From IMG/VR virus record IMGVR_UViG_2643221939_000004, positions 1 to 64,000 of that record: a stretch of 64,000 bases of DNA; one strand, given 5' to 3'. The translations under genes and the position numbers were made by a program. The notes beneath the pieces are model-generated. The model had not been told where the DNA came from. It did no database searches and saw nothing but the letters and a program-made list of their open reading frames with translations. The stretch's first letter is position 1. Each line of letters begins with the position of its first letter. The DNA is from a virus (Duplodnaviria > Caudoviricetes). Positions 11,361 through 26,731 of the stretch are shown here, piece by piece.

Positions 11361-11941
11361 TGGCCCGCGCCGCGAAGAACACCGCATCCGCCGAAACCGG
11401 CCCGGCCGGCATCGGGCACAACGACATCGCCTTGAAGGACCTCAAGGTTCTCTTCTTCATCGGCCGGCAGAAGTATCTCGCTGCCCAGGCTGCGCAGAAG
11501 GCCGCCAACGCGGAGATGAAGCGCGTCGGCAAGGTGATCAAGGTGGACCTCGGGGAGTTCGGCCTCGACAGCATCAAGGCCTACGAGAAAGCCCAGACGC
11601 CCGAGGGCAAGGCAGCGCTCCAGGCCCGCCAGGAAGCCGAGCGGCAGGCCATGAGCTTCGCTGGCATCCCGATCAACACGCAGCTCGATCTTCTCACCGA
11701 TCGCATGCCGCTCGTGGAGCGAGCCTATCGCGATGGCGAAGAGGCGGGTCTTCGTGGCGACACGCTGAACAACCCTTTCAGCGAGGCATCCGAGGAAGGC
11801 CACGAATATGCTCGCGGATGGCATGACGGGCAGGGCGCCCTCTTCGCCGGCATCAAGCAGAAGGAAGCCGAGGCGGCGGCCGAGCTGATCAAAGGCCCCG
11901 GCCATGACGGCGGCGGCGATCTCGACGAGGAGCAGGACTGA
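11360..11941 (+). CDS. Phage protein with C-terminal Rmf/CrpP-like motif
   Basis: AYRDGEEAGLRG...NPF...EYARGWHDG. Confidence 0.6.
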   Translation: MARAAKNTASAETGPAGIGHNDIALKDLKVLFFIGRQKYLAAQAAQKAANAEMKRVGKVIKVDLGEFGLDSIKAYEKAQTPEGKAALQARQEAERQAMSFAGIPINTQLDLLTDRMPLVERAYRDGEEAGLRGDTLNNPFSEASEEGHEYARGWHDGQGALFAGIKQKEAEAAAELIKGPGHDGGGDLDEEQD

Positions 11942-12618
11942 TGGCTGGGTCTGCTCGCGGGCTGTTCCGCGCCACCGGCAAGAAGTCCAAGCCCGTTGCC
12001 GTCCGTGACCTTGCTGGCGACATCGTCATGGCCGATGCGCTGGAACGTGAGAAGGACGACTTCTACCCGACTCCGCCCGAGCCGACCCGCGCCATCCTCT
12101 CGGCCGAACTAAGGCGGCTGAGGGACTTCCATACGGTCTGGGAGCCGGCGGCTGGCGACGGCGCCATGGTGCGCGAGATGGAATCGGTCGGGCTGACCGT
12201 CCGCGCATCGGACCTGATTGACCGCGGCTGCGGTGCTGACATCCGGTCCTTCTACGACTTCCCGGCAGCGCCATCGCCTGCGATCCTCACGAACCCGCCC
12301 TTCGCCGAATGCGGCTGGGGCAACGGCAAGGCTCGCTGGCTGACGCATGCGCTCGACAACCTCGGCGTCGAGTACATGGCGCTCCTGATGAACTGGGGCT
12401 TCCCAGGCGCCGGTGGACTCGGGCCCTTCTGGGCGAAGCATCCGGCAGCCCGCGTCTATCTGATGCGCTGGAAGATCGACTTCACCGGGCAGGGTGCCCC
12501 GCCCATGCTCAACGCGTGGTTCGTCTGGGATCGCCAGCACCGCGGCGAGACGGTCCTTCGGATGCTGGACCGGGCCGATGCGCGTCAGGCGGAGATGTTT
12601 GGCGAGGTGGCGGCATGA
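11941..12618 (+). CDS. Putative amino-DNA methyltransferase
   Basis: DFYPTP, WEPAAGDG SAM-binding motif, TNPPF catalytic motif. Confidence 0.8.
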   Translation: MAGSARGLFRATGKKSKPVAVRDLAGDIVMADALEREKDDFYPTPPEPTRAILSAELRRLRDFHTVWEPAAGDGAMVREMESVGLTVRASDLIDRGCGADIRSFYDFPAAPSPAILTNPPFAECGWGNGKARWLTHALDNLGVEYMALLMNWGFPGAGGLGPFWAKHPAARVYLMRWKIDFTGQGAPPMLNAWFVWDRQHRGETVLRMLDRADARQAEMFGEVAA

Positions 12619-13190
12619 GCCTGATCCTCGGCCTCGACGCCGCCTCCACCACCGGCTTCGCCTATTACGACGACACCCGCAGCATATCGGCCATGGAGGT
12701 CGGAGTGCTCCGCGCCAAGGGCGACGGCTTCGAGGACCGCGCGTCGTTCCTCGGCCGCGAGCTCGTCGTCATGCTCCGCAAGCGGCGGCCCGACTTCGTG
12801 GCGATCGAGCAGCCGCTCCGCATGCTTCCCGGCGGCAAGCGCAAGGAAAAGTTCATGGGCGAGGAGGTGGAGGTCTCCGGCGCCGGCGGCGGGACCAACG
12901 CGCTCATCCTCTCCAACCAGATCGTGAGCGCCTTCTGCACCGCGGCCCGGATCAAGGACATCCCCTTCGTCCTGATCGCCTCCGCCACCTGGCGCACGCA
13001 GTTTCTCGGCTTCGGCCGCAAGCCCGGATTCGACCGGAAGGCCTGGAAGAAGGCGGCCCGCGAGCGCTGCGCTGCGCTGAAGATCTCCGTGACCAACGAC
13101 GACATGGCCGAGGCCTGCGGCGTGGCCTTCGCCGCCACCGCGACCGACGCCTTCAAGATGATGAAGCACCAGATGGAGCGAGCCGCATGA
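12615..13190 (+). CDS. RuvC-like Holliday junction resolvase
   Basis: ILGLDAASTTG, VAIEQP, NDDMAEA RNase H-fold motifs. Confidence 0.75.
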   Translation: MSLILGLDAASTTGFAYYDDTRSISAMEVGVLRAKGDGFEDRASFLGRELVVMLRKRRPDFVAIEQPLRMLPGGKRKEKFMGEEVEVSGAGGGTNALILSNQIVSAFCTAARIKDIPFVLIASATWRTQFLGFGRKPGFDRKAWKKAARERCAALKISVTNDDMAEACGVAFAATATDAFKMMKHQMERAA

Positions 13191-13846
13191 TGAACCTCGT
13201 CGACATCCGCGAGCGCGCCGAACGTCGGCAGCAGGCCGCGCACCAGAACCAGAGCTTCCATCGCGAGCAGCTGTCCAAGGCAGAGGCGGAGGAGGGGGAT
13301 CTCGGTATCATCATCGACGGGATCGACGACCTGATCGAGGCGCAGGCTACGTTCGCGAAGATCATGCACGGCGCGTCGCCCGAGCTTCTCGCCGCTATCG
13401 GCGCGACCGAGACGACCACTGGCACCATACCGGCCATCCCGGCTGAGGAGCCGGTCGCTGAAGAGGTCGGCGTCGGAACGCCGCCCGCCGCGGTCGAGCC
13501 GCCTGTCGCTCCGAAGCGCGCGGTTGCCCGCAAGGCGAAGGAAGCCCCTGCCGATCCCATAGTCCAAGCCGCCGCCAAACCGCCAGCACCCGCCGACGCG
13601 CCGCGTCCGACAGACGCCGCCCTCGACGCCAAGGTGCTCGACATCATGCAGCGCGCGGCGGCCAGCGGCGATGGGCAGGCGATGTTCGACATGGCGACGT
13701 TGGCCGGCAAGATGGAAGTCACCTCCCTCGCGCTCGACAAGTCCTTCACCCGCCTGGCCGAGGCCGGCCGCATCGTGCGCCAGAGGTGCGAGCTTAAGGG
13801 CCATGCCGCGTTCGAGGTGATCGCCGAGACGGAGGCGGCGGAGTGA
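13187..13846 (+). CDS. Phage hypothetical protein (possible C-terminal wHTH)
   Basis: Operon-coupled ORF. Confidence 0.55.
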   Translation: MMNLVDIRERAERRQQAAHQNQSFHREQLSKAEAEEGDLGIIIDGIDDLIEAQATFAKIMHGASPELLAAIGATETTTGTIPAIPAEEPVAEEVGVGTPPAAVEPPVAPKRAVARKAKEAPADPIVQAAAKPPAPADAPRPTDAALDAKVLDIMQRAAASGDGQAMFDMATLAGKMEVTSLALDKSFTRLAEAGRIVRQRCELKGHAAFEVIAETEAAE

Positions 13847-14961
13847 CAATCTCCACATTCCTCGACGGCCGGGTACGGCTTCATCTGGGCGATGTGCGGG
13901 AGCGGCTCGCCCTCATGCCCGAAGGTTCGATCGACTGTGTCGTGACCTCGCCGCCTTACTTCGGCCTTCGCGATTACGGGATGCTTGGTCAGATCGGAAT
14001 GGAAGCTACGCCTGCTGAGTTCGTCGCGGCACTGGTCCAGGTGTTCCGGCAGGTGCGTCGCGTCCTGAAAGCCGATGGATCACTCTGGCTGAACATCGGC
14101 GACAGCTATGCGGGATCGTGGGGCGCGCAGTCTCGAGGAGATGACACGCCCGGCACCTTGGAAGGTGGGTCGATGATCTCGGCGCGCCAGATTGCCGCTC
14201 ACCCAAGAGGGCAGTCCGGGACAGGATCGCTCAAGCGCACGCCCGGATTGAAGCCGAAAGACCTCATGATGATTCCGGCGCGCGTCGCGATCGCCCTTCA
14301 GGATGACGGCTGGTATCTGCGGCAAGACATCATCTGGCACAAGCCGAACCCGATGCCGGAGAGCGTACGCGATCGCTGCACCAAGGCGCATGAGTATGTC
14401 TTCCTCCTCACCAAGTCGCCTCGTTATTTCTACGATGCTGACGCAATCGCAGAGGGCCTCGCGCCAGCTTCGGTCGGTCGTCTCGCGCAGGTAGGTCTCG
14501 CATCTCAGGCAGGTTCTTCTCGCGTCCCTGGTAAGGCGAATGGGGCCATGAAGGCAGTCGCGGGCGGAAGAAAGCGTGGCGTTCCTCCTCGCCATGCTTC
14601 CTACGAAAGCAGCGATCAGTCGGGCCTTGATGACGTTGGCCGCGGCTATCGCAATAAGCGATCCGTCTGGTCGATCTCAACGCAGCCGTTCTCTGATGCG
14701 CATTTCGCCACCATGGCGCCGGAGCTTGCGGAGACGTGCATCCTCGCCGGCTGCCCGAAGGGCGGCACCGTTCTCGACCCGTTTGGCGGCGCAGGCACTA
14801 CCGCTCTGGTCGCGCTACGCCATGGCCGTAAGGCCGAGCTGATCGAGTTGAACCCCGACTACGCGGCAATGGCGCGGCGCCGGATCGAGACGGAATGGCG
14901 GGTATCGATTCCATCTGTAGGCTCCGACTTCGGGCCCCTTTTTTCGGAGTCCGCAGCATGA
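13843..14961 (+). CDS. Beta-class N6/N4 DNA methyltransferase
   Basis: VTSPPY followed by VLDPFGGAGTT. Confidence 0.92.
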   Translation: MTISTFLDGRVRLHLGDVRERLALMPEGSIDCVVTSPPYFGLRDYGMLGQIGMEATPAEFVAALVQVFRQVRRVLKADGSLWLNIGDSYAGSWGAQSRGDDTPGTLEGGSMISARQIAAHPRGQSGTGSLKRTPGLKPKDLMMIPARVAIALQDDGWYLRQDIIWHKPNPMPESVRDRCTKAHEYVFLLTKSPRYFYDADAIAEGLAPASVGRLAQVGLASQAGSSRVPGKANGAMKAVAGGRKRGVPPRHASYESSDQSGLDDVGRGYRNKRSVWSISTQPFSDAHFATMAPELAETCILAGCPKGGTVLDPFGGAGTTALVALRHGRKAELIELNPDYAAMARRRIETEWRVSIPSVGSDFGPLFSESAA

Positions 14962-16454
14962 ACGCGCTCACCCCCATCGACTTCGACGGCGCGGTCAACA
15001 TCGAGGCCGAGCAGGCGCTTCTCGGCGCGATCCTCGTGAACAACGAAGCTCTGGCGCCTGTGCTGGAGGTCGGCTTCGAGGCCCGGTTCTTCGAGGAGGC
15101 GATCCACCGCGACATCTTCACCGCGGCGAGCTCGCTCATCACGTCGGGCCGGAAGGCCGATCCGGTGACGCTCCGCCCGTTCCTGCCGGTCGATGCGGAG
15201 ATCGGCGACACGAACCTCGGCGGCTACCTCATGCGTCTTTGTGCCGAGGCCGTCACCGTCCTGCATGCTCGCGACTATGCCCTGGCGGTGCTCGACGCCT
15301 ATGCCGCGCGGGTCGCTGCCCAGACGCTCGACCGCTACATCGAAGAGTTCGTCCGGCGCGATCCGGCGAAGGGCATCACCGATATCATCTCCAGGCTCGA
15401 GGACGATCTCGGCGGCATCCGCGCGCTCTCGCCCGCGATGAAGGCCCGCGAATCCATGAGCGGCGTGATGGACGCATTCCTGCGCCGGCTGAACGAAGGC
15501 CGGACGAAGGGGGGGCGGGTCATCCCGTTCCCGCTCGGCGAGATCGCGGACGTTCTCCAGGAGGACGGGTTTCAGGTCGGCAACCTCTACGGCCTCCTGG
15601 GCTCGTCAGGGGAAGGCAAGACGTCGCTGATGCTCCAGTGCGTCCGCGCCGCGGCCGACGCTGGCAACCCGGTCCTGCTCCTCTCCTACGACCAGACTTT
15701 CGAGCAGGTCGCTCGGCAGATGATTTCGCAACAGACCGGCATCTCGGTCTCGCAGATGCTCCGGCACAATCCCGGCAAGTCCGAGACGCTGAACCGGAAG
15801 GAGATCGACCTCATCACCGAGGCCGGCGTCGACCTGCAGGAACTCCCGATCCAGGTCCGCAAGCTCCACAATCAGAAGATCGGCGGCATCCTCTCCATCG
15901 CCCGCAACTGGACGAAAACGATCCGCAAGGGCCGGCAGCCGAATGGTGAGCCCTGGGGCTCGCCGCTCATCATCCTCGACCACAACCGCAAGGTCACGCC
16001 CGAGGATCCGAAGGCGCACGAGGGCCGCATCGCCGGCGCAGTGAACGGTGCCGGGAAGGCGATGGCCGAGGAGTTGGGCGCCGCGGTGCTCTTCCTCAAC
16101 CAGCGCAACGGCAAGGGCGCGGATCGGTACGTGCCCCGGCCGATCGCAGCGGACCTCTTCGGCGGAGAGCAGGCGCGCGAGGACTATGACGCGATCCTCT
16201 ACATCTACAGGCCCGAGCGCTGGCGCGACGAGCAACTGAGCGTCGCCAAGGACCAGAAGCAGGCCGACGAGATCCGCCGGCGCTTCATGCTCCGATCCTC
16301 ATGGGAGGACACGCCTCGCGATCCCGAGGGCATGGCCGAGATCGGCGCCATCAAAGTCCGATACGGCGCCGGCGGCGTCCGGTCCGAGCTGAAGTTCGAA
16401 GGCCGATACACCCGCTACGCCAGCACACGCCAGACCGAGCCGGAGCTGTTCTGA
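14958..16454 (+). CDS. DnaB-like replicative helicase
   Basis: EAEQALLGAIL N-terminal domain; Walker A GSSGEGKT. Confidence 0.85.
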   Translation: MNALTPIDFDGAVNIEAEQALLGAILVNNEALAPVLEVGFEARFFEEAIHRDIFTAASSLITSGRKADPVTLRPFLPVDAEIGDTNLGGYLMRLCAEAVTVLHARDYALAVLDAYAARVAAQTLDRYIEEFVRRDPAKGITDIISRLEDDLGGIRALSPAMKARESMSGVMDAFLRRLNEGRTKGGRVIPFPLGEIADVLQEDGFQVGNLYGLLGSSGEGKTSLMLQCVRAAADAGNPVLLLSYDQTFEQVARQMISQQTGISVSQMLRHNPGKSETLNRKEIDLITEAGVDLQELPIQVRKLHNQKIGGILSIARNWTKTIRKGRQPNGEPWGSPLIILDHNRKVTPEDPKAHEGRIAGAVNGAGKAMAEELGAAVLFLNQRNGKGADRYVPRPIAADLFGGEQAREDYDAILYIYRPERWRDEQLSVAKDQKQADEIRRRFMLRSSWEDTPRDPEGMAEIGAIKVRYGAGGVRSELKFEGRYTRYASTRQTEPELF

Positions 16455-16816
16455 TGACCGACACATCCCGTCCCGAGGTCAGATCCTTCCCGTGGGCCCG
16501 AGGCTATCAGGGCCAGTTCAAGATGCCCGGCGGCGGCTGGAAGTTCGTGCGCATCCCCGGCACGAAGGAGGCGCAGGTCTTCCCGACATCCGAGGCGGCG
16601 AAGGATGCCGCGACCAAGTTGGTGTTTCAATTCATGTGCCCGCCGATTGTCTCGGAGCGGGTGGAGGAAGTCGATCTGTTTGCGAAGGGCGTAACGGCAG
16701 CGGTCCTGGAGTTCAAAGCGGGCCAGCAGCGCCAGCGCGTCGAGGACCGGAAGGTGTTCGCCCGGGCCGGCCAGAAGCCCGTCATCGTCCAGACAAAGCG
16801 GAGCCGCCTCGCATGA
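16454..16816 (+). CDS. Phage hypothetical protein
   Basis: Operon-coupled ORF. Confidence 0.55.
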   Translation: MTDTSRPEVRSFPWARGYQGQFKMPGGGWKFVRIPGTKEAQVFPTSEAAKDAATKLVFQFMCPPIVSERVEEVDLFAKGVTAAVLEFKAGQQRQRVEDRKVFARAGQKPVIVQTKRSRLA

Positions 16817-17124
16817 GCCGCGAAGTCCTGCCCCACCGCCGCCCGTCCGAGAACGAAGAGATCGTGTTCGCCGGCATGCCGATCTCCGTCACCTTCGGCT
16901 ACACCGATGATGCCCGGATCACCGAGGTCTTCATGTCCACCCGCAAGGTCGGGACCATGATGGACATCGCCGTCCGCGATCTGGCCGTCACCATCTCGCT
17001 CGCGCTTCAGTATGGCGTCACACCGACGGTGCTGGAGCGCTCGCTCACCGCTGACGAGAGCGGCAAGCCGGAAGGCCTCGCTGGCAAGATTGTCGCCATG
17101 ATCCGGGAGCGTGCCGTCGCATGA
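16813..17124 (+). CDS. Stand-alone TSCPD-like domain (class II ribonucleotide reductase C-terminal-like)
   Basis: REVLPHRR...ITEVF...ISLALQYGV. Confidence 0.7.
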   Translation: MSREVLPHRRPSENEEIVFAGMPISVTFGYTDDARITEVFMSTRKVGTMMDIAVRDLAVTISLALQYGVTPTVLERSLTADESGKPEGLAGKIVAMIRERAVA

Positions 17125-17555
17125 CCAACGCCAAGAGCCATCTAGACCAGTTCCTAGACGGCATTGGCGTTCGCCTGGTGCCGGTGGCACGCCGGCGCCG
17201 CGGTGCCCAGAGCCACGCCCGGGCCACCATGCGCGAGATCCTGAACGATCACGGCGGCGATCACCTCGCGCTCGTGCTCCGCTTCATCCGCGACAGCGAG
17301 GGGAACAAGGGCGCGCTTTGGTCCGAGACCATCGGCGCCGTGTCGGACATCCTCCTGCAGCGTCCAGACTGGGCGGAGAGGCCGTCCGACGTCTTCGCCG
17401 CACTCGACACCATCGATCTGAACGACGCGCGCCGTGAGGCCGTCCTGCGCCGCCCTTGGCCGGTCCGACAAACCCTCCGCGCCTACCTCTACCGTGACCT
17501 GCAGCGCGCGCTCGACGCCCGCATTGATCAAGACCTTCTCGGAGCTGCCGCATGA
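17121..17555 (+). CDS. Phage hypothetical protein
   Basis: Operon-coupled ORF. Confidence 0.6.
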   Translation: MTNAKSHLDQFLDGIGVRLVPVARRRRGAQSHARATMREILNDHGGDHLALVLRFIRDSEGNKGALWSETIGAVSDILLQRPDWAERPSDVFAALDTIDLNDARREAVLRRPWPVRQTLRAYLYRDLQRALDARIDQDLLGAAA

Positions 17556-18544
17556 AAATGATCACCCAATCTGAGCTCATGCAGCTCTTTTCATACGATC
17601 CTTCCACCGGAGACTTCACGCGGCTTTCCCGTATTCGACGGCATCAAGCCGGCGAGACTGCCGGTTGGACCGATGATCGAGGCTATCGGCGCATCAAGAT
17701 TGATGGGCGAAACCACTTCGCGCACCGTTTGGCATGGCTTTACGTCCATGGGACGCTCCCAACTCAAATCGATCACATCAACCAGGACACTGGCGATAAT
17801 CGGATTGCCAATCTGCGTGACGCGACCCATGCTCTTAACCAGAGGAACAAGCGCAATTCGTCGTTGTATCGACCGCCATCAACCATGCGGCCATGGAGCT
17901 TCGAGGAAGAGGCAATCCTCGCGCCGCTGATCATTTTGGCAAAGGCCCGCTTTGTTGAGGCTGCAGACACGTTCGCTCATCTCGGACCCGAGTACACCGG
18001 TCCATCTCTGATGCGATCAGTCTGGCCCACGTATGCCTCAACAACTCTGGGCGGGCATGACGTTGGCTACGGCGGGAATGGTCAGAGGGTGATCTACCGG
18101 CCAAATTCAGCAGCAGTCTCCAGAGCGGAGGAGGTTGTCAGCCAATGGGTTCCGACGATCCGTCAGCAAGACGACAGAGTGCTAGCTGGAGCCTGGGCTC
18201 AGTGTCTTGCCGCACCTCGGATTGCGGGGTCTTGGCGTTCATATTGTCGGGAGAAGAGACTAAATCGAACCACCGCAGACAGACACGTTTTCAGTGCATT
18301 CCATAGTGTTGCTGTAGGCTTATCGAAAAACTCTCAAATGTTGCACGAGCCTGATTGGGTTCGGCTAGTGCCAAGGTTCCCAATCTCGGGTACTGACATT
18401 GATATGGTCGCAGAACGTGTGACAGAGCGCGCCAACCACTGGCGAGCCGACGACGCAAAGCCGACCAGCCAGCCCGACATGCGCGATACCTCGTGGGCCG
18501 AAGGGCAGAACGAGATGCGGCGTCGTCGGGTGGCGAACGGATAG
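17552..18544 (+). CDS. HNH endonuclease fused to putative late regulator (DUF6362-like)
   Basis: AHRLAW...IDHINQDTGDNRIANLR at N-terminus; RFVEAADT...WP...SRAEEV C-terminal domain; located at the lambdoid Q position. Confidence 0.65.
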   Translation: MKMITQSELMQLFSYDPSTGDFTRLSRIRRHQAGETAGWTDDRGYRRIKIDGRNHFAHRLAWLYVHGTLPTQIDHINQDTGDNRIANLRDATHALNQRNKRNSSLYRPPSTMRPWSFEEEAILAPLIILAKARFVEAADTFAHLGPEYTGPSLMRSVWPTYASTTLGGHDVGYGGNGQRVIYRPNSAAVSRAEEVVSQWVPTIRQQDDRVLAGAWAQCLAAPRIAGSWRSYCREKRLNRTTADRHVFSAFHSVAVGLSKNSQMLHEPDWVRLVPRFPISGTDIDMVAERVTERANHWRADDAKPTSQPDMRDTSWAEGQNEMRRRRVANG

Positions 18545-18562
18545 CAGATCGGCCTCCGCATA

Positions 18563-18915
18563 GGGCCGTTGGCGATGAGCGTAATCCGGACAAAGCGGAA
18601 CAAGGTCGGACGCGGGGGCAGCGCCCGCCGCCTCCACCAAGACCACACCGGCCAGTGCGGGACACCCGTTTAAGGCCCAAGCCTCTGATCAAGGTCACTC
18701 CCTAAGATAGGTGGGAGAGCTGCGAATCCGGTGTGGTCTTGATGGGGGCGAAACAGGATCGACGGCCTAGGGAAGTGGCGAACGCGCTCGGGAATGGCTC
18801 CACCCTCATCGGGCCGAACGGAAAGCTGTCAACGACAACTCTCCCCACTCGGGTCTCGCCCTCGCGGCGTGATGTCTGACGGGCCGCCGGCGCCTTGGAA
18901 CAGAAGCCCGGCACC
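18563..18915 (+). ncRNA. ssrA: Two-piece (permuted) tmRNA, prophage-encoded
   Basis: Acceptor piece ending GCGGG-GGCAGCG-CCCGC-CGCCTCC-ACCA (18639); stem-closed intervening segment; coding piece starting GGGGGCGAAACAGGATCGAC (18744); tag frame VNDNSPHSGLALAA* (18828-18872). Outer ends approximate. Confidence 0.88.
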
Positions 18916-18939
18916 GATCGCAGCAGCAGGAATGCGCAG

Positions 18940-19110
18940 ATGGAAGATCGCGCCTACTTCACGACAGAGGGCGAGCGGCTGGAGGTCGTTGCGTTCGCTG
19001 ACGAGGACATGATGGAATGCCCGGAAGAGGGCGCCTTCTACGCCATCGCCAACATGCCAGACGGAGCGCTTGAAGCCGTCGAAATCATTGAGCGGCCTCG
19101 CGCCCACTAA
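18940..19110 (+). CDS. Small acidic hypothetical protein
   Basis: MEDRAYF ORF downstream of tmRNA, followed by a terminator. Confidence 0.4.
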   Translation: MEDRAYFTTEGERLEVVAFADEDMMECPEEGAFYAIANMPDGALEAVEIIERPRAH

Positions 19111-19132
19111 CCGCCGCCCCATTCCATTACTC

Positions 19133-19162
19133 GCCCGCCGGAGAAATCCGAGCGGGCTTTTC
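19133..19162 (+). terminator. Rho-independent terminator
   Basis: GCCCGC..GCGGGC hairpin followed by TTTT. Confidence 0.6.
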
Positions 19163-19163
19163 T

Positions 19164-19415
19164 ATGCCCGGCGCGGAGGGATACCCCATGGCATCCAAGC
19201 GGCGGCTCCGGCGGAAGTCCTGCACCTCCAAGGTCCGGCACGAGACAGAAGGCAGCGCCTGGGGCGTGGTTCGCAACCTGATCCGCAAAGGCAAGGGTGA
19301 CGGCCTGCGCGCCTATCGGTGCGGGAACTGCAGCGGCTGGCATGTCGGCCACCCAATCGGCAGCGGCAACAGCGGGCTTCTGATCGCCTGCCGCTCTGCT
19401 CGCCCTCATCACTGA
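19164..19415 (+). CDS. Small basic Zn-binding phage protein
   Basis: CTSKVRH...AYRCGNCSGWHVGH. Confidence 0.6.
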   Translation: MPGAEGYPMASKRRLRRKSCTSKVRHETEGSAWGVVRNLIRKGKGDGLRAYRCGNCSGWHVGHPIGSGNSGLLIACRSARPHH

Positions 19416-19425
19416 TCGGAAAACC

Positions 19426-19653
19426 ATGCGCCTCTCTGGCAACCTGCTGCCCTTCATCGGCCGCGTCATCAGCCCCTGCGATGCAAACGGCATCCCGGCC
19501 ATGACGGACGAAGAGGCGGGTGAAGCTCACTTCGAGACGACCGCGCTATGCCTGGCATGGTTCGGCCGGGTGATCATGATCGGCATTGGCGCCGTAGGGC
19601 CCCGGGCGGTCGATCCTGACAACCCGAGGGCCTATCTCGCCGGAAACCTCTGA
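19426..19653 (+). CDS. Phage hypothetical protein
   Basis: ORF in late operon orientation. Confidence 0.4.
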   Translation: MRLSGNLLPFIGRVISPCDANGIPAMTDEEAGEAHFETTALCLAWFGRVIMIGIGAVGPRAVDPDNPRAYLAGNL

Positions 19654-19794
19654 TGCCGCCCTGCCGATCCTGTGAAGAGCGCCGGCGCATGCTCTCCGAC
19701 GCCAAGGCCAAGGACGGCATCAAGGGTATGGTGCGAGCCATCCCAGCTGTCGGGCGGCATCTGATGGCGAACCCGCCGAAGCTGAAGGACGACG

Positions 19795-20280
19795 ATGCCA
19801 GCGCTCAGCAACGCGAAGCATGAGGCATTCGCTCGTGCGCTCGCAAAGGGCTCCAGCGCGGTCGACGCATATGCCAAGGCGGGATATGCCCCAAACAGGT
19901 CCCACGCCTCCCGGCTGGTCGCAAATGGTAACGTGCGGAAGCGGGTGTCCGAACTGCAGCGCGACGCCGCCGGACGAGCCAAGGTGACAATCCAGAGCAT
20001 CGCCGACCAACTCGACGAGGACCGCGCCTTCGCTCGTCTCCAGGGGCAGGCCAAGGCAGCGATCGACGCGACCATGAACAAGGCAAAGCTCCTCGGCCTC
20101 TACAGCGAGCGTCGTGAGGTGTCCGGCCCTGGCGGGGGCCCCATCCAGACCGTGGACCTGACGAACCTCTCCGATGACCAGCTTACCGCCCTCGAAGATA
20201 TCTTCGGCCCGCTTGCCGCCGGCGCCGATGATGATGAGGATGCTGCGAGCGGAGAGGGCGAGGCGGACCCAACAGGCTGA
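19795..20280 (+). CDS. Terminase small subunit
   Basis: KHEAFARALAKG..AY..AGY; EVSGPGGGPIQ; directly upstream of terL. Confidence 0.85.
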   Translation: MPALSNAKHEAFARALAKGSSAVDAYAKAGYAPNRSHASRLVANGNVRKRVSELQRDAAGRAKVTIQSIADQLDEDRAFARLQGQAKAAIDATMNKAKLLGLYSERREVSGPGGGPIQTVDLTNLSDDQLTALEDIFGPLAAGADDDEDAASGEGEADPTG

Positions 20281-21700
20281 GCGCGACCGCGTCGCAAAGG
20301 ACGCCGAACGTATCCGGGCCAAGTGCCAGACGCTCTCCGGGTTCGTCCGCGAGGCCTGGCATGTGCTGGAGCCCACAGCGAAATACACCCACGGCTGGCA
20401 CATCGACGCCATCTGCGCGCATCTGGAAGCGGTGACCGACGGCCGGATCAACCGGCTTCTGATCAACGTGCCGCCGGGCTCATCGAAATCCCTGCTCGTC
20501 TCTGTGATGTGGCAGGCGTGGGAATGGGGCCCGCGCGGGCTTTCCTCGCTCCGCTACCTTACCACCTCCTTCAACGATGGCCCGGTGAAGCGCGACACGC
20601 GCAAGTGCCGCGACCTGATGCTGTCGGACTGGTATCGGTCGCTTTGGCCCGAGGTCGAGCTGAACCGCACCGGCGAGACGTCGTTCTCGAACACGAAGAC
20701 CGGCACGCGAGAAGGCGTCCCGTTCGGTTCCCTGACGTCGCAGCGTGGCGACCGGCTGGTGATCGACGATCCGCACTCGACCGAGACCGCGGAATCGGCA
20801 GCCGATCGCCTCGCCACGACCCGCAAGTTCCGAGAGGGCGCGCAGAACCGCCTCAACGATCAAGAGCGCTCGGCCATCGTGGTCATCATGCAGCGCCTTC
20901 ACGAAGAGGACGTGTCGGGCGTCATCGCCAAAGTCGGGATGGAATACGTCCACCTGATGCTGCCGATGGAGTTCGAGCCGGAGCGGGTCTGCACCACAGA
21001 GATCGGGTTCACGGACCCGCGCAAGCACGAGGGCGATCTCCTTGACCCCGTCAGGTTCGGGCCTGAGGCGGTCGCCAAGCTCAAGCGCGACATGGGCAGT
21101 TATGCCTATGCCGGCCAGTACCAACAGCGCCCGGCACCCCGCGCAGGCGGCATGTTCCAGCGCGGCGATTTCGAGATCGTTGATGCAGTCCCGGCCGGCG
21201 CAGTGCGCTGCAGGGCTTGGGATTTCGCCGCCAGCACGCCAAAGCCGGGCAAGCAGCCCGATTGGACCGTGGGGCTGCGCATGGCCTACGTCGATGGGCT
21301 CTTCTTCGTGGAGGATGTCCGGCGGGATCGCTGGTCGCCGGCCGACGTCGAACGCAACCTGAAGAACATCGCCACCCAAGACGGGCAGATGGTCCGCATA
21401 CGGATGCCGCAGGATCCTGGCGCCGCCGGCAAGTCAGACGCTCATACGAAGGTCAAGATCCTCGCCGGCTACGACGTGAAGGTTGTCCCGCCGACAGGTG
21501 AGAAGGCTCTCCGCGCCAAGCCGGCATCAGCACAGACCGAGGCAGGGAACGTCAGGCTGCTTCGAGGGCCTTGGAACGACGCCTTCCTCGATGAGGTCTG
21601 CTCGTTTCCGAATTCGCAGTTCGACGATCAGGTGGACGCCTTCGCCGACGCTCTAAACGAGCTCGCGCTCGGGTCCAGCTACACCCTCGCCAACCTCTAG
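20174..21700 (+). CDS. Terminase large subunit (true start possibly about 20228)
   Basis: INVPPGSSKS, VIDDPH, QYQQRP, FPNSQFDDQVDA. Confidence 0.93.
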   Translation: MTSLPPSKISSARLPPAPMMMRMLRAERARRTQQAERDRVAKDAERIRAKCQTLSGFVREAWHVLEPTAKYTHGWHIDAICAHLEAVTDGRINRLLINVPPGSSKSLLVSVMWQAWEWGPRGLSSLRYLTTSFNDGPVKRDTRKCRDLMLSDWYRSLWPEVELNRTGETSFSNTKTGTREGVPFGSLTSQRGDRLVIDDPHSTETAESAADRLATTRKFREGAQNRLNDQERSAIVVIMQRLHEEDVSGVIAKVGMEYVHLMLPMEFEPERVCTTEIGFTDPRKHEGDLLDPVRFGPEAVAKLKRDMGSYAYAGQYQQRPAPRAGGMFQRGDFEIVDAVPAGAVRCRAWDFAASTPKPGKQPDWTVGLRMAYVDGLFFVEDVRRDRWSPADVERNLKNIATQDGQMVRIRMPQDPGAAGKSDAHTKVKILAGYDVKVVPPTGEKALRAKPASAQTEAGNVRLLRGPWNDAFLDEVCSFPNSQFDDQVDAFADALNELALGSSYTLANL

Positions 21701-21708
21701 GACCGTCG

Positions 21709-23526
21709 ATGCGCATCCCGTTCCTGGACAGCCTGACCAATCTCATCACAGGGATGGGCGGGTCGAAGGAAAAGGGCGCGTCCACAGTCTATGCCTTCGT
21801 GCCGATGCAGGCTGGCGAGCTGGATGCGGCCTATCGCGGGTCTTGGCTGCCCAGGAAAGTCGTCGACATCCCGGCGATGGACATGTGCCGCGCATGGCGC
21901 GCATGGCAGGCCGACGACGACCAGATCGAGAAGCTGGAGGCTGAGGAGAAGCGCCTCGACGTGCAGCGGAAGGTGCTGGAGGCGAAGACCAAGGCGCGGC
22001 TCTACGGCGGCGCGGCGATCGTGATCAGCGATGGTTCGCAGCTGCCGGGCGAGGAGCTTCGGCCGGAGCGAATGCAGCGCGGCAAGATCGAGTTCCTGAC
22101 GGTGATGACGCCGCAGCATCTCACAGCGGGCGAGATCGATCGCGATCCGCTGTCGCGCACGTTCGGCCAGCCGCGGTTCTACACGATCCAGGGCGCCACA
22201 GGCACTCAGGTCAAGGTCCACGCCTCGCGTGTGGTCCGGTTCCTCGGTAACCCGGTTCCTGACGATGCTCATGTCCTGCACCAAGGCTGGGGCGACAGCA
22301 TCCTCGAGACCGTCAGCCGCGCGCTGAAGGACGCGGAATCGGCAGCCGGCAACATCGCGGAGATGACGCACGAGGCCAAGCTCGACGTGGTCCGCATCCC
22401 GAACTTGATGGCCTTCGCGTCTCAGCCCGAATACGAGGCTCGGTTCCTCCGCCGCATGACCCTGGCCGGCATGGCGAAGGGCATCCACAACATGCTCATC
22501 CTCGACAAGGAGGAGGAGTGGGAGACCAAGCAGCTGTCTTTCGCGACGCTGCCCGAGGTGCTGGACCGCTTCCTGCAGATCGCTTCAGGCGCGGCCGACA
22601 TCCCCGCCACGCGCCTTCTGGGCCAGTCGCCGGCCGGCATGAACGCCACCGGGGAATCGGACCTGATCAACTACTACGATCGGATCAGCGCGGGGCAGAA
22701 CCTTGAACTCGGCCCGGCCCTGTCGATCCTCGACGAATGCCTGATCTGGTCCGCGCTCGGCAGCCGGCCGGCGGAGATCCACTACCGCTGGCTCCCGCTC
22801 TGGCAGCTGAGCGAGAAGGACAAGGCCGACGTCGGGCTGAAGAAGGCGCAGGCCTTCCAGATCGACGTCAACGGCGGGCTCTTCCCCGACAGCGCCATGT
22901 CCAAGGCTCGGCGCAATCAGCTGGTCGAGGACGGCACCTATCCGGGGCTCGAGGCGGCGCTCGACGAGGCTGCGGCGGAAGGCGACGAGATCGACTTCTC
23001 CGCCAAGGCTGCAGAGCCCGAGGTCGACCCGGCCGAGACGGCATCCATCCTGCGCATGCGGGCCGCTGCGAACGATGCGGCGCCCGCCACGCTCTACGTG
23101 CACCGCAAGGTGAAGAACGGCGCGGAGATCATCGCCTGGGCCAAGCGGCAGGGCTTCACCTCCACGCTGGAGGCGTCTGACCTTCACGTCACCATCGCCT
23201 TCTCACGCCAACCCGTCGACTGGATGGCCGTTGGCGAGACATGGGAGAGCGAGATCAAGATCGCTGCTGGCGGACCGCGCCTCATGGAGCAGTTCGGCGA
23301 GGCGACCGTGCTTCTCATCTCCTCGCGCTCGCTGAAGTGGCGACATGAGGAGATCATCGCGGCGGGCGCGTCGTGGGATCATCCCGAGTACCAGCCGCAC
23401 ATCACGATCAGCTACGGCGGGGCACCGGCGGACCTGACGAAGGTGCAGGCCTACCAGGGCGAGATCGTGCTCGGGCCGGAGATCTTCGAGCCGCTTGACG
23501 AGGACTGGAAGGCGAAGGTGACATGA
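21709..23526 (+). CDS. DUF1073-type portal fused to C-terminal 2H phosphoesterase (Acb1-like)
   Basis: ARLYGGA, IPATRLLGQSPAGMNATGESD portal motifs; LHVTIAFS and PHITISY HxT pair. Confidence 0.85.
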   Translation: MRIPFLDSLTNLITGMGGSKEKGASTVYAFVPMQAGELDAAYRGSWLPRKVVDIPAMDMCRAWRAWQADDDQIEKLEAEEKRLDVQRKVLEAKTKARLYGGAAIVISDGSQLPGEELRPERMQRGKIEFLTVMTPQHLTAGEIDRDPLSRTFGQPRFYTIQGATGTQVKVHASRVVRFLGNPVPDDAHVLHQGWGDSILETVSRALKDAESAAGNIAEMTHEAKLDVVRIPNLMAFASQPEYEARFLRRMTLAGMAKGIHNMLILDKEEEWETKQLSFATLPEVLDRFLQIASGAADIPATRLLGQSPAGMNATGESDLINYYDRISAGQNLELGPALSILDECLIWSALGSRPAEIHYRWLPLWQLSEKDKADVGLKKAQAFQIDVNGGLFPDSAMSKARRNQLVEDGTYPGLEAALDEAAAEGDEIDFSAKAAEPEVDPAETASILRMRAAANDAAPATLYVHRKVKNGAEIIAWAKRQGFTSTLEASDLHVTIAFSRQPVDWMAVGETWESEIKIAAGGPRLMEQFGEATVLLISSRSLKWRHEEIIAAGASWDHPEYQPHITISYGGAPADLTKVQAYQGEIVLGPEIFEPLDEDWKAKVT

Positions 23527-23765
23527 CGCTGGTGATCGCTGGAATGCGCGTCCCTTCGAACTTCCATGTCTTTCTGAACGGAGAAGCTGTCGCTGACTGT
23601 GTGGAGGCAGACGATATTGCCGGTTACGTCATAGTGACCCCTCGTGATGAGCGCGGGCGCTTGATTATCGAAGGCGAGTGCTACGCTCAACAGCGTAAGA
23701 CGGGCCGCGTCGAGTTCAGCGTACCGCTCAGCACGCCTGCGCCCCACTTGGTCGAGCATGGCTGA
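23523..23765 (+). CDS. Phage hypothetical protein
   Basis: Operon-coupled ORF. Confidence 0.5.
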   Translation: MTLVIAGMRVPSNFHVFLNGEAVADCVEADDIAGYVIVTPRDERGRLIIEGECYAQQRKTGRVEFSVPLSTPAPHLVEHG

Positions 23766-23991
23766 CGTCGTCGCCTTCACCGGCATCACGAAGCTCGACA
23801 CGGACCCGGATCGGGTTCTCGCAGAAGCGGCGGATAAGCTCGAAGGGGTGGTCATTTGCGGCGTCGGCAAGGACGGAGACCTCTACTTCGCATCGTCATT
23901 CGCCGATGGCGCTGACGTGCTGTGGTGGATGCGCCGTGCCGAGCATGCGCTGATGAAGATCACCGACGCTCTGGAGAGCGGCGAAAGCTGA
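23758..23991 (+). CDS. Phage hypothetical protein
   Basis: Operon-coupled ORF. Confidence 0.6.
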   Translation: MADVVAFTGITKLDTDPDRVLAEAADKLEGVVICGVGKDGDLYFASSFADGADVLWWMRRAEHALMKITDALESGES

Positions 23992-24001
23992 CGGGGCTGG
24001 A

Positions 24002-24832
24002 ATGCAGACCTTCAACCTCGCCCGCCTCGCTGCCGCCAAGACCCGCCGCGCCTCCGTCACGCTCCCGCCGATCGTGGACAGCGGCGGGGCGCAGAAGGAA
24101 TATCTCCGCGCAGAGCGGGCCATGCTGCGGGCTCTGGCGGCGCGGACCATGTCCGACGTTGTCCCGCAGGTGGAAGCCGAGATCGCCCGCCAGAGGTCAG
24201 CCCTGACGCAGGACGCGCTCTTCTCGGGCATGTTCGAGACGCTGAAAGATCTGGCCGTCACGCTCGGCATCATCGCGGAGGGCACGGTCAGCCGCATCCT
24301 TGGGCTTGAGGCCGGCCGCCACACCGAGAAGTGGAAGGCCTCTGTCCGGTCCACGCTGGGCATCGACATCGCTGCGGTCGTCTCGCAGGAGGACTTGGGC
24401 GACAAGCTGCAGGACGCGGTGGGGCGCAACGCCTCGCTGATCAAGAGCCTCGCCAGCGACACCGTCGCGAAGGTGGAGCGGGCCGCCTATGACGCGGTGC
24501 TGCAGGGCCAGACGGCCAAGCAGTTCCGCGAGCGCCTGACGGAGGAGTTCGGGGTCGCCGATCGCCGCGCCAAGGTCATCGCGCGGGATCAGGTCGCCAA
24601 GCTGACAAGCGATCTCAACCGCTTTCGGCATGTGCAGGCCGGCGTCACGTCTTACGCCTGGAGCACGTCGCACGACGAGCGGGTGAGGGCGCGGCACAAG
24701 GCTCTTGAGGGCAAGGAATACGAATACGGGAAGCCGACGGACGCTGAGAACGGCTTGCCACCTGGGCAGCCTATCCAGTGCCGGTGCGTTGCGCGCGGGA
24801 TCGTCTACTTCGACGGTGAGCGCTTCGACTGA
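24002..24832 (+). CDS. Minor head protein (Mu gpF / SPP1 gp7-like)
   Basis: IARDQ, WSTSHDERVRARH, PGQPIQCRC. Confidence 0.88.
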   Translation: MQTFNLARLAAAKTRRASVTLPPIVDSGGAQKEYLRAERAMLRALAARTMSDVVPQVEAEIARQRSALTQDALFSGMFETLKDLAVTLGIIAEGTVSRILGLEAGRHTEKWKASVRSTLGIDIAAVVSQEDLGDKLQDAVGRNASLIKSLASDTVAKVERAAYDAVLQGQTAKQFRERLTEEFGVADRRAKVIARDQVAKLTSDLNRFRHVQAGVTSYAWSTSHDERVRARHKALEGKEYEYGKPTDAENGLPPGQPIQCRCVARGIVYFDGERFD

Positions 24833-25056
24833 GGCAGGGGCAGCGTGTGGCTGGGGCGAGGGCCCTTGCCGAGCAGCGACATGAACGTGTCGAGCTCCTT
24901 CATCCCGCCGATATGCGCGATGTCGTTGATGCGAAGGCCGGCCTGCAGATCGTCCATCTGCACCTGCAGCCGTCGCACATGGTTCGCCAGGTCGGACAGC
25001 CGGCAGTTCTGATCCAAGAGGATCTGCTTCAGCTCTCGGAATTGCTCGTCGTTCAT
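24805..25056 (-). CDS. Small moron, opposite strand
   Basis: Coiled-coil-like ORF filling the gap between head genes. Confidence 0.5.
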   Translation of the reverse strand: MNDEQFRELKQILLDQNCRLSDLANHVRRLQVQMDDLQAGLRINDIAHIGGMKELDTFMSLLGKGPRPSHTLPLPQSKRSPSK

Positions 25057-25092
25057 GGGCGGCGACGATAGCCGCGATCAAGGACATCGCCA

Positions 25093-26235: not shown

Positions 26236-26249
26236 AGGAGACCCTGATC

Positions 26250-26729: not shown

Positions 26730-26731
26730 TC

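What the first reader, a model, noticed from the sequence alone, without database searches (positions are those of the whole stretch)
18563..18915. Prophage-encoded two-piece (permuted) tmRNA with its own degradation tag
Seen in sequence: an acceptor piece ending in a T-arm GCGGG/CCCGC and CGCCTCC-A-CCA (18629-18639). A roughly 104-nt intervening segment follows, closed by a 14-bp stem CAAGACCACACCGG/CCGGTGTGGTCTTG. The coding piece starts GGGGGCG (18744) and pairs with CGCCTCC to give a 7-bp stem with G3-U70. A second helix can form between GGGCCGTTGG (18563-72) and TCGACGGCCT (18759-68). The tag frame reads GTC AAC GAC AAC...GCG GCG TGA = VNDNSPHSGLALAA*. Established: alphaproteobacterial ssrA is permuted in this way, G3-U70 is the AlaRS determinant, and C-terminal LAA is the ClpX degron. 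Inference: the gene lies deep inside the prophage at the head of the late operon, not at an att site, so it is phage cargo. It may rescue ribosomes stalled by host RNase-based defences or alter tagging during lytic growth. No smpB was seen in the window, so it would depend on host SmpB.
Basis: partly seen in the sequence, partly recalled or inferred. Interest (0 to 1): 0.92.

Follow-up and report, generated by a model that had tools for sequence, protein, structure and literature searches.

The report
Prophage-carried two-piece tmRNA gene
An integrated phage in this alphaproteobacterium carries its own complete, split-type ribosome-rescue RNA (tmRNA) gene with a different tag from the host's, which is a real but already documented kind of phage cargo.

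Summary
ARAGORN and two Rfam models call a permuted tmRNA at 18547-18963 and 18577-18872 (99.4 bits, cut-off 47), with tag VNDNSPHSGLALAA. The genome has a separate canonical ssrA on another contig (287 bits, tag ANDNYAEVRLAA) and one smpB. The gene lies 21 and 30 kb from the ends of a ~51-kb myovirus-type prophage integrated at tRNA-Gly(CCC). It sits between an HNH endonuclease and the terminase, so it is cargo and not an att remnant.

None of 160 terminase-related loci has a tmRNA, and 13 carry tRNAs in that slot. A paralogous slot in the same genome holds tRNA-Met. An independent run holds a near-identical copy whose spacer is swapped exactly at CCA+1 and G1, which argues for selection on the mature pieces.

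Phage two-piece tmRNAs, a prophage-borne tmRNA and Bradyrhizobium phage tmRNAs are already in print. I rate it a new member of a known kind with modest interest. Function is inferred, not shown. This scan has noted phage two-piece tmRNAs with swappable spacers before, on other DNA.

The parts
17552..18544 (+). HNH endonuclease gene (HNH_3 plus weak DUF6362) directly upstream. Its last 92 nt (18443-18534) are 92% identical to a paralogous prophage region on contig C23.
   Evidence: PHROG 99, E 1.2e-40. PF13392, 49.9 bits. blastn against the genome.
18550..18568 (+). Candidate local hairpin at the 5' end of the acceptor piece (CGGCCU 18550-55 / GGGCCG 18563-68, 7-nt loop). It is the counterpart of the hairpin at positions 40-53 of the Rfam alpha_tmRNA model.
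   Evidence: Script search for local hairpins. Model alignment of the host copy. Its role is inferred.
18577..18639 (+). Acceptor piece core: P2 outer strand GAGCG 18577-81, UCGGAC 18606-11, T arm 18612-28 (loop GGCAGCG), acceptor 3' strand CGCCUCC 18629-35, discriminator A 18636 and encoded CCA 18637-39.
   Evidence: Infernal alignment. Family comparison of 101 copies. An independent contig matches 18582-18640 with 4 differences.
18640..18743 (+). Intervening segment of 104 nt, presumed to be excised. It is closed by a perfect 14-bp stem (18638-51 with 18728-41) stacked on the acceptor stem.
   Evidence: Sequence. Fold. Replaced by 40 unrelated letters in the relative in run X4, with the swap bounded exactly at 18640 and 18744. 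It is longer than all 51 host spacers measured.
18744..18914 (+). Coding piece: acceptor 5' strand GGGGGCG 18744-50 (G3 = 18746), AAACAGGAUCGAC block, P2 strands (CGCUC 18785-89 pairs with 18577-81), a proposed first pseudoknot around 18790-18815 (by eye only), the tag frame and the 3' pseudoknot.
   Evidence: Infernal alignment. An independent contig matches 18744-18914 with 3 differences and diverges after 18914.
18828..18872 (+). Tag reading frame: GUC resume codon, VNDNSPHSGLALAA, UGA stop. The frame-setting bases AAGCU lie at 18823-27.
   Evidence: ARAGORN. Position -4 is A in 95 of 102 copies, -3 is a purine in 102 of 102 and -1 is U in 89 of 102, and the window fits all three. A GTC resume codon also occurs in 3 of 76 viral copies.
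18881..18912 (+). 3' pseudoknot: GGGC 18881-84 pairs with GCCU 18892-95. GCCGGC 18886-91 pairs with GCC(C)GGC 18906-12, with C18909 bulged. The conserved loop motif AACAGAA lies at 18899-905.
   Evidence: Alignment A1 of 71 distinct copies. Pair counts: 86.4% paired against 63.1% in shuffles (0 of 500 reach it), covariation 0.584 against 0.10-0.23 when slid. The window fits 4 of 7 pairs in the fixed register, or 6 bp with one bulge.
19795..21700 (+). Terminase small subunit (19795-20280) and large subunit (20174-21700) downstream, after four small ORFs (18940-19823).
   Evidence: PHROG 51 and PHROG 38. Pfam. Small ORFs.
1..48646 (.). Prophage 1, about 51.3 kb, whose left end lies 2.6 kb before the window. 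Contents: integrase just outside the window, RecT, PDDEXK nuclease, S24 repressor, DnaB, methyltransferase, HNH, tmRNA, terminase, portal, head, contractile tail and muramidase.
   Evidence: 43-nt exact repeat 48604-48646 = C53:91001-91043. Integrase at C53:91172-91627. Gene families.
48608..48682 (+). tRNA-Gly(CCC), the shared attachment site of prophage 1 (its 5' part is duplicated) and of a second prophage to the right (its 3' part is duplicated at window 85269).
   Evidence: ARAGORN. Rfam, 70.3 bits. Repeat scans.

Best explanation
This is a complete, circularly permuted (two-piece) alpha-type tmRNA gene carried as cargo by an apparently intact temperate myovirus-type prophage. It occupies an exchangeable slot between the HNH endonuclease and the terminase genes. 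In related phages that slot holds tRNA genes.

Most likely mechanism (steps 1-4 are inferred):
1. The gene is transcribed with the rightward operon, because it has no promoter or terminator of its own.
2. The precursor folds so that the 7-bp acceptor stem stacks on the 14-bp spacer stem.
3. Host RNase P and 3' trimming enzymes remove the 104-nt spacer. This leaves an acceptor RNA ending in CCA (up to 18639) and a 171-nt coding RNA (18744-18914), held together by the acceptor and P2 helices.
4. Host AlaRS charges it through G3-U70. Host SmpB and EF-Tu deliver it to stalled ribosomes. Translation resumes at GUC 18828 and adds (A)VNDNSPHSGLALAA. The LAA end sends the product to ClpXP.

The benefit to the phage would be extra or replacement ribosome-rescue capacity during lytic growth.

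Shown here: the gene, its identity elements, its position as cargo, the separate host ssrA and smpB, and conservation of the mature pieces in a second sample.
Inferred: transcription, processing, charging, tagging and the benefit.
For: **Detection.** ARAGORN. Rfam 99.4 and 83.2 bits, both over the cut-offs.

**Second copy.** The host has a full-length ssrA (287 bits) on C51 with tag ANDNYAEVRLAA.

**Cargo.** Exact repeats of tRNA-Gly next to an integrase delimit the prophage. The gene lies 21 and 30 kb from its ends, among phage genes.

**Identity elements, all as in the family.**
- Acceptor stem 7 of 7 pairs with G3-U70, as in 101 of 101 copies.
- T stem 5 of 5 pairs, UCGGAC block and ACCA end.
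- Acceptor stem identical to the host's.
- Frame-setting A at -4, purine at -3 and U at -1.
- The covariation-supported 3' pseudoknot is present.

**Selection.** An independent run from another study has a contig matching 18582-18640 (4 differences in 59) and 18744-18914 (3 in 171). The spacer is replaced by 40 other letters exactly between CCA+1 and G1, and the downstream DNA is unrelated.

**Not a recent capture from this host.**
- Identity to the own host copy is 56% (coding piece) and 64% (acceptor piece). Identity to Mesorhizobium phage Cp1R7A-A1 is 64% and 72%.
- The 104-nt spacer exceeds all 51 host spacers (maximum 67) and sits within the viral range, median 86.
- The stop-to-motif distance is 29 nt, against 71-76 in all 24 host copies of the same order.

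**Slot.** 0 of 160 terminase-anchored relatives have a tmRNA and 13 have tRNAs upstream of terL. The paralogous slot on C23 has tRNA-Met.

**Independent case.** The prophage in G536 has tRNA-Trp/Met/Pro plus a permuted tmRNA between terL and the head genes.

**Host factor.** One smpB on C43.
Against: - No expression or processing data exist.
- The RF04321 score (99.4 bits) is at the bottom of the host range (99-171 bits). The alpha model matches only positions 40-263 of 355.
- The T loop GGCAGCG departs from the family at two positions that are nearly invariant: position 6 is U in 97 of 101 copies and position 7 is A in 92 of 101.
- The main stem of the 3' pseudoknot needs a one-base bulge, with 4 of 7 pairs in the fixed register.
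- Seven pairs are non-standard in the alpha-model alignment, against four in the host copy.
- The resume codon is Val, not Ala. No host copy of 24 has this.
- None of 160 related phage loci keeps a tmRNA here, so it is dispensable for the lineage.
- Only one close relative is known, from a single 374-nt contig at depth 5.2. The positions of its differences were not reported, so compensatory change could not be assessed.
Confidence: 0.7

Rival explanations
1. It is a neutral or decaying passenger. A once-functional phage tmRNA cassette was swapped into the tRNA slot by recombination and is no longer used. It is still recognisable, but drifting.
For: - 0 of 160 related loci carry it.
- Lowest-range model score.
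- Unusual T-loop bases.
- Bulged pseudoknot stem.
- More non-standard pairs in P2 than the host copy.
- No own promoter or terminator.
- Val resume codon.
Against: - Every element known to be essential is intact.
- A second sample keeps both mature pieces at about 93-98% identity while its spacer is entirely different and bounded at the mature ends. That pattern is expected under selection on the mature RNAs.
- The Val resume codon recurs in an independent viral lineage with two spacer lengths.
- Mesorhizobium phage Cp1R7A-A1 scores the same on RF04321, 99.3 bits. Low scores may therefore be normal for phage copies.
Confidence: 0.2
2. It works against, rather than in support of, the host rescue system. 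The phage RNA would compete for the single host SmpB or for stalled ribosomes. It would thereby redirect or damp host trans-translation, for example to shape the lysis-lysogeny decision or the stability of particular proteins. Its variant tag would change adaptor use.
For: - The TLD-only RNA of mycobacteriophage DS6A has been suggested to inhibit tmRNA by titrating SmpB (PMC4131195, passages).
- tmRNA influences Mu and lambda-P22 biology, as cited in PMC12656738 (passages).
- The tag differs from the host's in its first residue and its middle part, while keeping NDN and ALAA.
- There is only one smpB in the genome.
Against: The gene is a full tmRNA with a normal degron-ending tag and a stop codon. 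The simplest reading is therefore ordinary trans-translation. Nothing in the sequence points to inhibition.
Confidence: 0.07
3. It is not phage cargo at all. It would be a host ssrA locus, a fragment made by integration at ssrA, or an assembly error.
For: - ssrA is a common integration site, and fragments arise there. Sub-threshold fragments covering model positions 35-105 were seen in 3 of 60 relatives.
- The left junction runs through a roughly 30-nt repeat shared with contig C23.
Against: - The gene is complete, with both pieces.
- The host has its own full copy elsewhere.
- The prophage's att repeats are tRNA-Gly, not ssrA.
- An independent assembly of the likely source run carries one contig from 18460 through the gene to beyond 20200. 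Contig depths pair the window's HNH piece (230.5) with the tmRNA piece (235.8), and the C23 pieces with each other (182.5 and 188.8).
- Even a mis-join would only move the gene to the same slot of the other prophage.
Confidence: 0.02

Closest known systems
Phage-encoded two-piece tmRNAs of aquatic myophages (OM43 phage Melnitz, pelagimyophages; Buchholz et al. 2022, PMC9004378, passages read)
   Same: - A complete, ARAGORN-detectable permuted ssrA of alphaproteobacterial type, carried inside a phage genome.
- No phage smpB.
- Function unknown, presumed to be ribosome rescue or tagging.
- A long spacer is typical of virus-borne copies.
   Different: - Those are large lytic marine phages without integrases. 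In Melnitz the gene is tied to a glutamine riboswitch and an early promoter.
- Here the carrier is an integrated temperate prophage of a host whose relatives' prophages lie in Rhizobiaceae genomes.
- The gene sits beside the packaging genes, and no riboswitch was found (Rfam).
- Sequence identity is limited to the tRNA-like core.
Unannotated permuted tmRNA of Mesorhizobium phage Cp1R7A-A1 (MT188704, 131 kb)
   Same: - Closest isolate-phage copy. The acceptor piece is 72% and the coding piece 64% identical.
- Same RF04321 score, 99.3 bits.
- 93-nt spacer and a 28-nt stop-to-motif distance.
- Same outer P2 helix, GAGCG/CGCUC.
- The host belongs to the same order.
   Different: - It is a large phage with no sign of integration in the stretch seen.
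- The tag is ANDNHFEARALAA with a GCA resume codon.
- It has a full-length match to the alpha model, 112 bits over positions 1-355.
- Its neighbours include a tRNA-splicing ligase.
Prophage-borne tmRNA in Mycobacterium abscessus (prophiT49-2: 24 tRNAs and a tmRNA; PMC9934374, passages read) and mycobacteriophage Bxz1-type tmRNAs (PMC4131195, passages read)
   Same: A tmRNA carried together with tRNA cargo by a phage that exists as an integrated prophage. The host keeps its own ssrA.
   Different: - The hosts are Actinobacteria.
- I assume those are standard one-piece tmRNAs, but the passages I read do not say.
- They belong to large tRNA arrays, whereas here the tmRNA is the only RNA gene in the slot.
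Host alphaproteobacterial two-piece tmRNA (Rfam RF01849; Caulobacter model, Keiler et al. 2000, cited from recall and via PMC9004378)
   Same: - Same permuted gene order, acceptor stem sequence, G3-U70, GAUCGAC block, NDN...LAA tag logic and 3' pseudoknot with the AACAGAA loop.
   Different: - No promoter-like 5' block (model positions 1-39).
- Spacer of 104 nt against 15-67 nt.
- About 43 nt fewer between the stop codon and the 3' pseudoknot than copies of its own host order. That short form does occur in hosts of other orders.
- Val resume codon.

Membership tests
tmRNA, circularly permuted two-piece type (Rfam RF04321 / RF01849) | Covariance-model score above the curated threshold | tested here: met
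   RF04321: 99.4 bits against 47, model positions 1-213 of 213. RF01849: 83.2 bits against 50, positions 40-263 of 355.
tmRNA, circularly permuted two-piece type (Rfam RF04321 / RF01849) | Permuted order: acceptor 3' strand with CCA lies upstream of the acceptor 5' strand, separated by a stem-closed spacer | tested here: met
   CGCCUCC-ACCA 18629-39, spacer 18640-18743 with a 14-bp closing stem, GGGGGCG 18744-50.
tmRNA, circularly permuted two-piece type (Rfam RF04321 / RF01849) | tRNA-Ala-like domain: 7-bp acceptor stem with G3-U70, discriminator A, T arm | tested here: met
   7 of 7 and 5 of 5 pairs, with G18746-U18633. G3-U70 is present in 101 of 101 family copies parsed. T-loop positions 6 and 7 are atypical.
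tmRNA, circularly permuted two-piece type (Rfam RF04321 / RF01849) | Short tag frame without a start codon, preceded by the frame-setting context and ending in a hydrophobic ...AA degron and a stop codon | tested here: met
   VNDNSPHSGLALAA then UGA. The bases at -4, -3 and -1 fit the family. The resume codon is Val, which is rare: 3 of 76 viral copies and 0 of 24 host copies.
tmRNA, circularly permuted two-piece type (Rfam RF04321 / RF01849) | Pseudoknot after the tag, with covariation support in the family | tested here: met
   The window forms both stems, one of them with a single-base bulge.
tmRNA, circularly permuted two-piece type (Rfam RF04321 / RF01849) | Processing into two RNAs, alanine charging, SmpB-dependent tagging | not testable with these tools
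   No RNA run holds the stretch. Host smpB is present.
Phage or prophage cargo gene (as opposed to a host locus or an att-site remnant) | Lies inside an element delimited by att repeats and an integrase, among phage genes, with the host's own copy elsewhere | tested here: met
Phage or prophage cargo gene (as opposed to a host locus or an att-site remnant) | Present or absent among related elements at the same position | tested here: met
   0 of 160 related loci have it and 13 have tRNAs there. The paralogous slot on C23 has tRNA-Met. 1 of 60 relatives-plus-own genomes and 1 further genome of 150 class-level genomes have a second full-length copy.

The most novel reading that the evidence does not exclude
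The slot between the HNH endonuclease and the terminase may be an exchangeable cassette site for tRNA-like genes in temperate phages of this group. The tmRNA cassette, whose own spacer is freely swappable, would be a phage-lineage rescue RNA that writes a phage-specific tag (Val start, SPHSG middle, ALAA end). During induction it would take over from, or stand in for, the host tmRNA. That could happen when a defence nuclease or the phage itself disables host translation. It would change which adaptor and protease see the rescued products. The two tags are distinguishable by mass spectrometry, and the host keeps its own ssrA. This lysogen would therefore be a clean system in which to find out what phage tmRNAs are for.
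Probability: 0.12. Interest if true: 0.7.

Novelty: new member of a known kind. Interest (0 to 1): 0.35.

Why it matters
Phage tmRNAs have been catalogued for years, but in the papers I read (passages only) their role is only guessed at. Here a complete two-piece copy sits in an apparently intact, integrated prophage beside a normal host ssrA and a single host smpB. Its tag has a different mass and sequence from the host's. That would allow simple genetics (delete either gene, induce the prophage) and mass spectrometry to ask whether the phage RNA is processed, charged and used, and whether it helps the phage.

Three side results may be useful for annotation:
- Virus-borne alpha-type copies have much longer and freely exchangeable spacers than host copies.
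- The same slot carries tRNAs in relatives.
- At least one isolate phage genome (Cp1R7A-A1) has such a gene unannotated.

Tried and rejected
**Looking for close relatives.**
- blastn against 50,697 phage records gave only a 74-nt core match to Cp1R7A-A1.
- blastn over 401 genomes of the order gave only host-type core matches of 74-75%.
- An exact tag pattern in the metagenome collection gave 0 hits.
- A lineage-specific 19-mer gave 0 hits in viral contigs and one metagenome hit, L288. L288 is a chance match in coding DNA with no tmRNA by ARAGORN or Infernal, so I rejected it.

**Terminase-anchored relatives.** 160 loci were fetched. ARAGORN through the tool covered 103 of them and then all 160 in a script. 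Infernal covered the 13 closest. None has a tmRNA.

**A claim I withdrew.** I first read the compact 3' domain as a virus-specific trait. A class-wide host sample then showed the short form in 17 of 27 parsed host copies (28 of 30 loci were called by ARAGORN and 27 had the motif). The trait only separates the prophage copy from copies of its own host's order.

**Folding.** The whole-precursor fold is not better than shuffles (z -0.86), so it is not evidence.

**Transcription signals.** No promoter or terminator was found near the gene. These are simple consensus scans and prove little.

**Expression.** No RNA holder is listed for the stretch. This is no evidence either way. Runs X3 and X5 cover only neighbouring coding parts at low likeness and add nothing on the tmRNA.

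**Limits of the parsing.**
- The first pseudoknot (about 18790-18815) was proposed by eye only and not tested.
- Counts from regex parsing leave out copies that did not match my anchors: 4 of 80 viral loci, 1 of 80, 10 of 30 class-level hosts and 1 short locus.
- A few T-loop outliers are parsing-register errors.

**Literature.**
- The phrase 'phage-encoded tmRNA' found 0 papers.
- Supplementary tables of PMC9004378, which list the 402 tmRNA-bearing phages, were not seen. They may already include temperate alphaproteobacterial phages.
Full report
**Observation.** The window holds, at 18547-18963 by ARAGORN and 18577-18872 by Infernal, a circularly permuted tmRNA gene.
- T arm 18612-28.
- CGCCUCC-A-CCA 18629-39.
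- A 104-nt spacer 18640-18743 closed by a perfect 14-bp stem.
- GGGGGCG 18744-50, giving a 7-bp acceptor stem with G18746-U18633.
- A tag frame from GUC 18828 to UGA 18870-72, encoding VNDNSPHSGLALAA.

Rfam tmRNA_permuted scores 99.4 bits (cut-off 47) over the whole model. alpha_tmRNA scores 83.2 bits (cut-off 50) over positions 40-263 of 355.

**Not the host gene.** The genome (53 contigs, 5.44 Mb) has two matches. One is a full-length alpha_tmRNA match of 287 bits on contig C51, and the other is the window's copy. The C51 copy encodes ANDNYAEVRLAA (and ARAGORN). There is one smpB, on C43.

**Cargo of a prophage.** The tRNA-Gly(CCC) at 48608-48682 is flanked by two elements.
- A 43-nt exact repeat (48604-48646 = C53:91001-91043) lies next to an integrase at C53:91172-91627. 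It delimits prophage 1, about 51.3 kb.
- A 49-nt exact repeat (48635-48683 = C53:178900-178948) lies next to another integrase. It delimits a second prophage to the right.

Prophage 1 contains the following genes:
- Left arm: RecT, a PDDEXK nuclease and an S24 repressor.
- Rightward, early: DnaB and a DNA methyltransferase.
- HNH endonuclease (17552-18544), then the tmRNA, then four small ORFs.
- Packaging and head: terS, terL, portal, head protease and major head protein.
- Tail and lysis: sheath, tape measure, baseplate and a muramidase.

The tmRNA is therefore 21 and 30 kb from the ends. It is not an att remnant.

**Assembly check.** An independent assembly of the likely source run carries one contig from 18460 through the gene to beyond 20200. 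Contig depths pair the window's HNH piece with the tmRNA piece (230.5 and 235.8), not with the paralogous pieces from C23 (182.5 and 188.8).

**An exchangeable slot.** I fetched 160 loci around relatives of terL. They comprise 80 from genomes, the best at 85% amino-acid identity in Rhizobiaceae and Mesorhizobium records, and 80 from viral contigs.
- None has a tmRNA (ARAGORN on all 160; Infernal on the 13 closest).
- Thirteen carry one or more same-strand tRNA genes upstream of terL.
- In the same genome, a third phage-like region on C23 shares with prophage 1 only a 92-nt island (92% identity, the end of the HNH gene) and a 32-nt island (97%, upstream of terS). Between them it holds tRNA-Met(CAT) instead of the tmRNA.
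- Among 61 genomes (G000 plus 60 relatives), only this one has a second full-length copy. Three others have short sub-threshold fragments.
- Among 150 class-level genomes, one more (G536) has a second full-length copy. That copy lies in a prophage, after terL and a tRNA-Trp/Met/Pro array and before the head genes.

**Is it intact?** I compared it with 101-102 alpha-type copies. These were 80 viral loci found with a 20-mer of the coding-piece start, of which ARAGORN calls a permuted tmRNA in 51. I added 30 host copies from relatives, the own host copy and phage Cp1R7A-A1.

In favour:
- The window's copy has the family's acceptor stem, identical to the host's.
- It has G3-U70, a paired T stem, the UCGGAC block and the ACCA end.
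- The bases that precede the resume codon fit the family: A at -4, a purine at -3 and U at -1.
- After the stop codon the family has a pseudoknot that I defined here and tested on 71 distinct copies. It shows 86.4% of cells paired against 63.1% in shuffles (0 of 500 reach it), a covariation score of 0.584 against 0.10-0.23 for slid controls, and 6 of 7 pairs of the main stem changing on both sides. The window forms both stems.

Against:
- One pseudoknot stem needs a single-base bulge.
- T-loop positions 6 and 7 are atypical.
- There are seven non-standard pairs in the alpha-model alignment, against four in the host copy.
- The model score is at the bottom of the host range.
- The resume codon is Val. 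However, GUC also occurs in 3 of 76 viral copies (tags VNDNEEVRLAA and VNDNEEVRIAA, with two spacer lengths). One of these lies next to terminase, portal and head genes.

**Evidence for selection.** A coded run from a different study holds a 374-nt contig matching 18582-18640 (4 differences) and 18744-18914 (3 differences).
- The 103 bases between are replaced by 40 unrelated letters, which contain their own inverted repeat by eye.
- The DNA after 18914 is unrelated.
- The swap is bounded by the base after CCA and by G1 of the coding piece. These are exactly the presumed mature ends.
- Spacer turnover among otherwise identical tags is also seen in my viral set. For example, one tag occurs with spacers of 139 and 264 nt.
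- Earlier notes of this scan described the spacer of phage two-piece tmRNAs as a swappable slot. I tested that only through these lengths and this one swap.

**Origin.** The copy is no closer to its own host's gene (56% and 64% identity for the coding and acceptor pieces) than to phage copies (up to 64% and 72%, best Cp1R7A-A1).
- Its 104-nt spacer exceeds all 51 host spacers measured (order level 15-67, class level 12-55). It lies within the viral range, median 86.
- Its stop-to-motif distance (29 nt) differs from all 24 host copies of its own order (71-76).
- I first took this short distance for a viral trait. A class-wide sample showed the short form (33-41 nt) in 17 of 27 host copies, so it is not virus-specific.
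- The copy lacks the conserved promoter-like block of the Rfam alpha model, positions 1-39. It has no consensus promoter or terminator nearby, so co-transcription with the operon is the likeliest route. This is an inference.

**The second helix.** The pairing 18563-72 with 18759-68 is in the minimum-free-energy fold. It has no counterpart in the 100 other copies, whose best helix is 3-7 pairs against 10 here. It would also tie up the invariant GAUCGAC block. Bases 18563-68 can instead close a local hairpin with 18550-55, at the place where the host copy, Cp1R7A-A1 and the Rfam model have one.

**What is known.**
- Buchholz et al. 2022 (PMC9004378, passages) report a two-piece ssrA in OM43 phage Melnitz. 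They found tmRNAs in 402 of 18,146 phage genomes, with 133 unique structures, 53 of them two-piece and 50 of those marine or aquatic.
- Hudson et al. 2014 (PMC4131195, passages) list phages with ssrA and mention second or third ssrA alleles in some genomes.
- Al-Shayeb et al. 2020 (PMC7162821, passages) report tmRNA and SmpB in huge phages.
- A 2025 paper (PMC12656738, passages) reports tmRNA genes in all Bradyrhizobium elkanii phages studied.
- Mesorhizobium phage Cp1R7A-A1 has an unannotated permuted tmRNA.
- The closest isolated phage by terL is only 50% identical.

**Verdict.** This is a real, probably functional, prophage-borne two-piece tmRNA, and a new member of a known kind. Its main value is as a tractable system for asking what phage tmRNAs do. 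Interest is 0.35.

Noticed in passing
window 21709-23526: The portal protein carries a C-terminal Acb1 (anti-CBASS 2H phosphoesterase) domain: PF23474, 155.9 bits, residues 461-602. The PHROG 146 portal profile spans the whole protein, so the fusion may be common in that family.
   Followed up: no
window 48604-48683, with repeats at C53:91001-91043 and C53:178900-178948: Two tandem prophages use the same tRNA-Gly(CCC). The left one duplicates the tRNA's 5' part (43-nt repeat) and the right one its 3' part (49-nt repeat). The intact tRNA between them is therefore shared.
   Followed up: partly
G000 contig C23:161826-162637: A third phage-like region shares with prophage 1 only a 92-nt island and a 32-nt island that flank the cargo slot. 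It holds tRNA-Met(CAT) at C23:162039-162115 where the window has the tmRNA.
   Followed up: partly
L037:3222-3296 (Rhizobium leguminosarum record, prophage related by terL): A tRNA with a CUA anticodon (called 'Pyl' by ARAGORN, amber-suppressor-like) lies in the slot upstream of the terminase. Rfam tRNA scores 49.3 bits.
   Followed up: no
L319:7464-8242 (G536:C5, unnamed alphaproteobacterial genome): A prophage carries tRNA-Trp, tRNA-Met, tRNA-Pro and a second permuted tmRNA (tag ANDNSPVAMAA, 80-nt spacer, acceptor stem GGGCCGG/CCGGUCC) between terL and the head genes.
   Followed up: partly
L005:3946-4381 (Mesorhizobium phage Cp1R7A-A1, MT188704 about 58677-59112): A complete permuted tmRNA gene (alpha_tmRNA 112 bits) is not annotated in the public record.
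   Followed up: yes
viral loci L201, L235, L238, L240, L242, L259 and L253: Virus-borne copies have spacers of 264-293 nt, long enough to hold a small gene. Copies with the same tag have 139-nt or 82-98-nt spacers. I did not look for ORFs in them.
   Followed up: no
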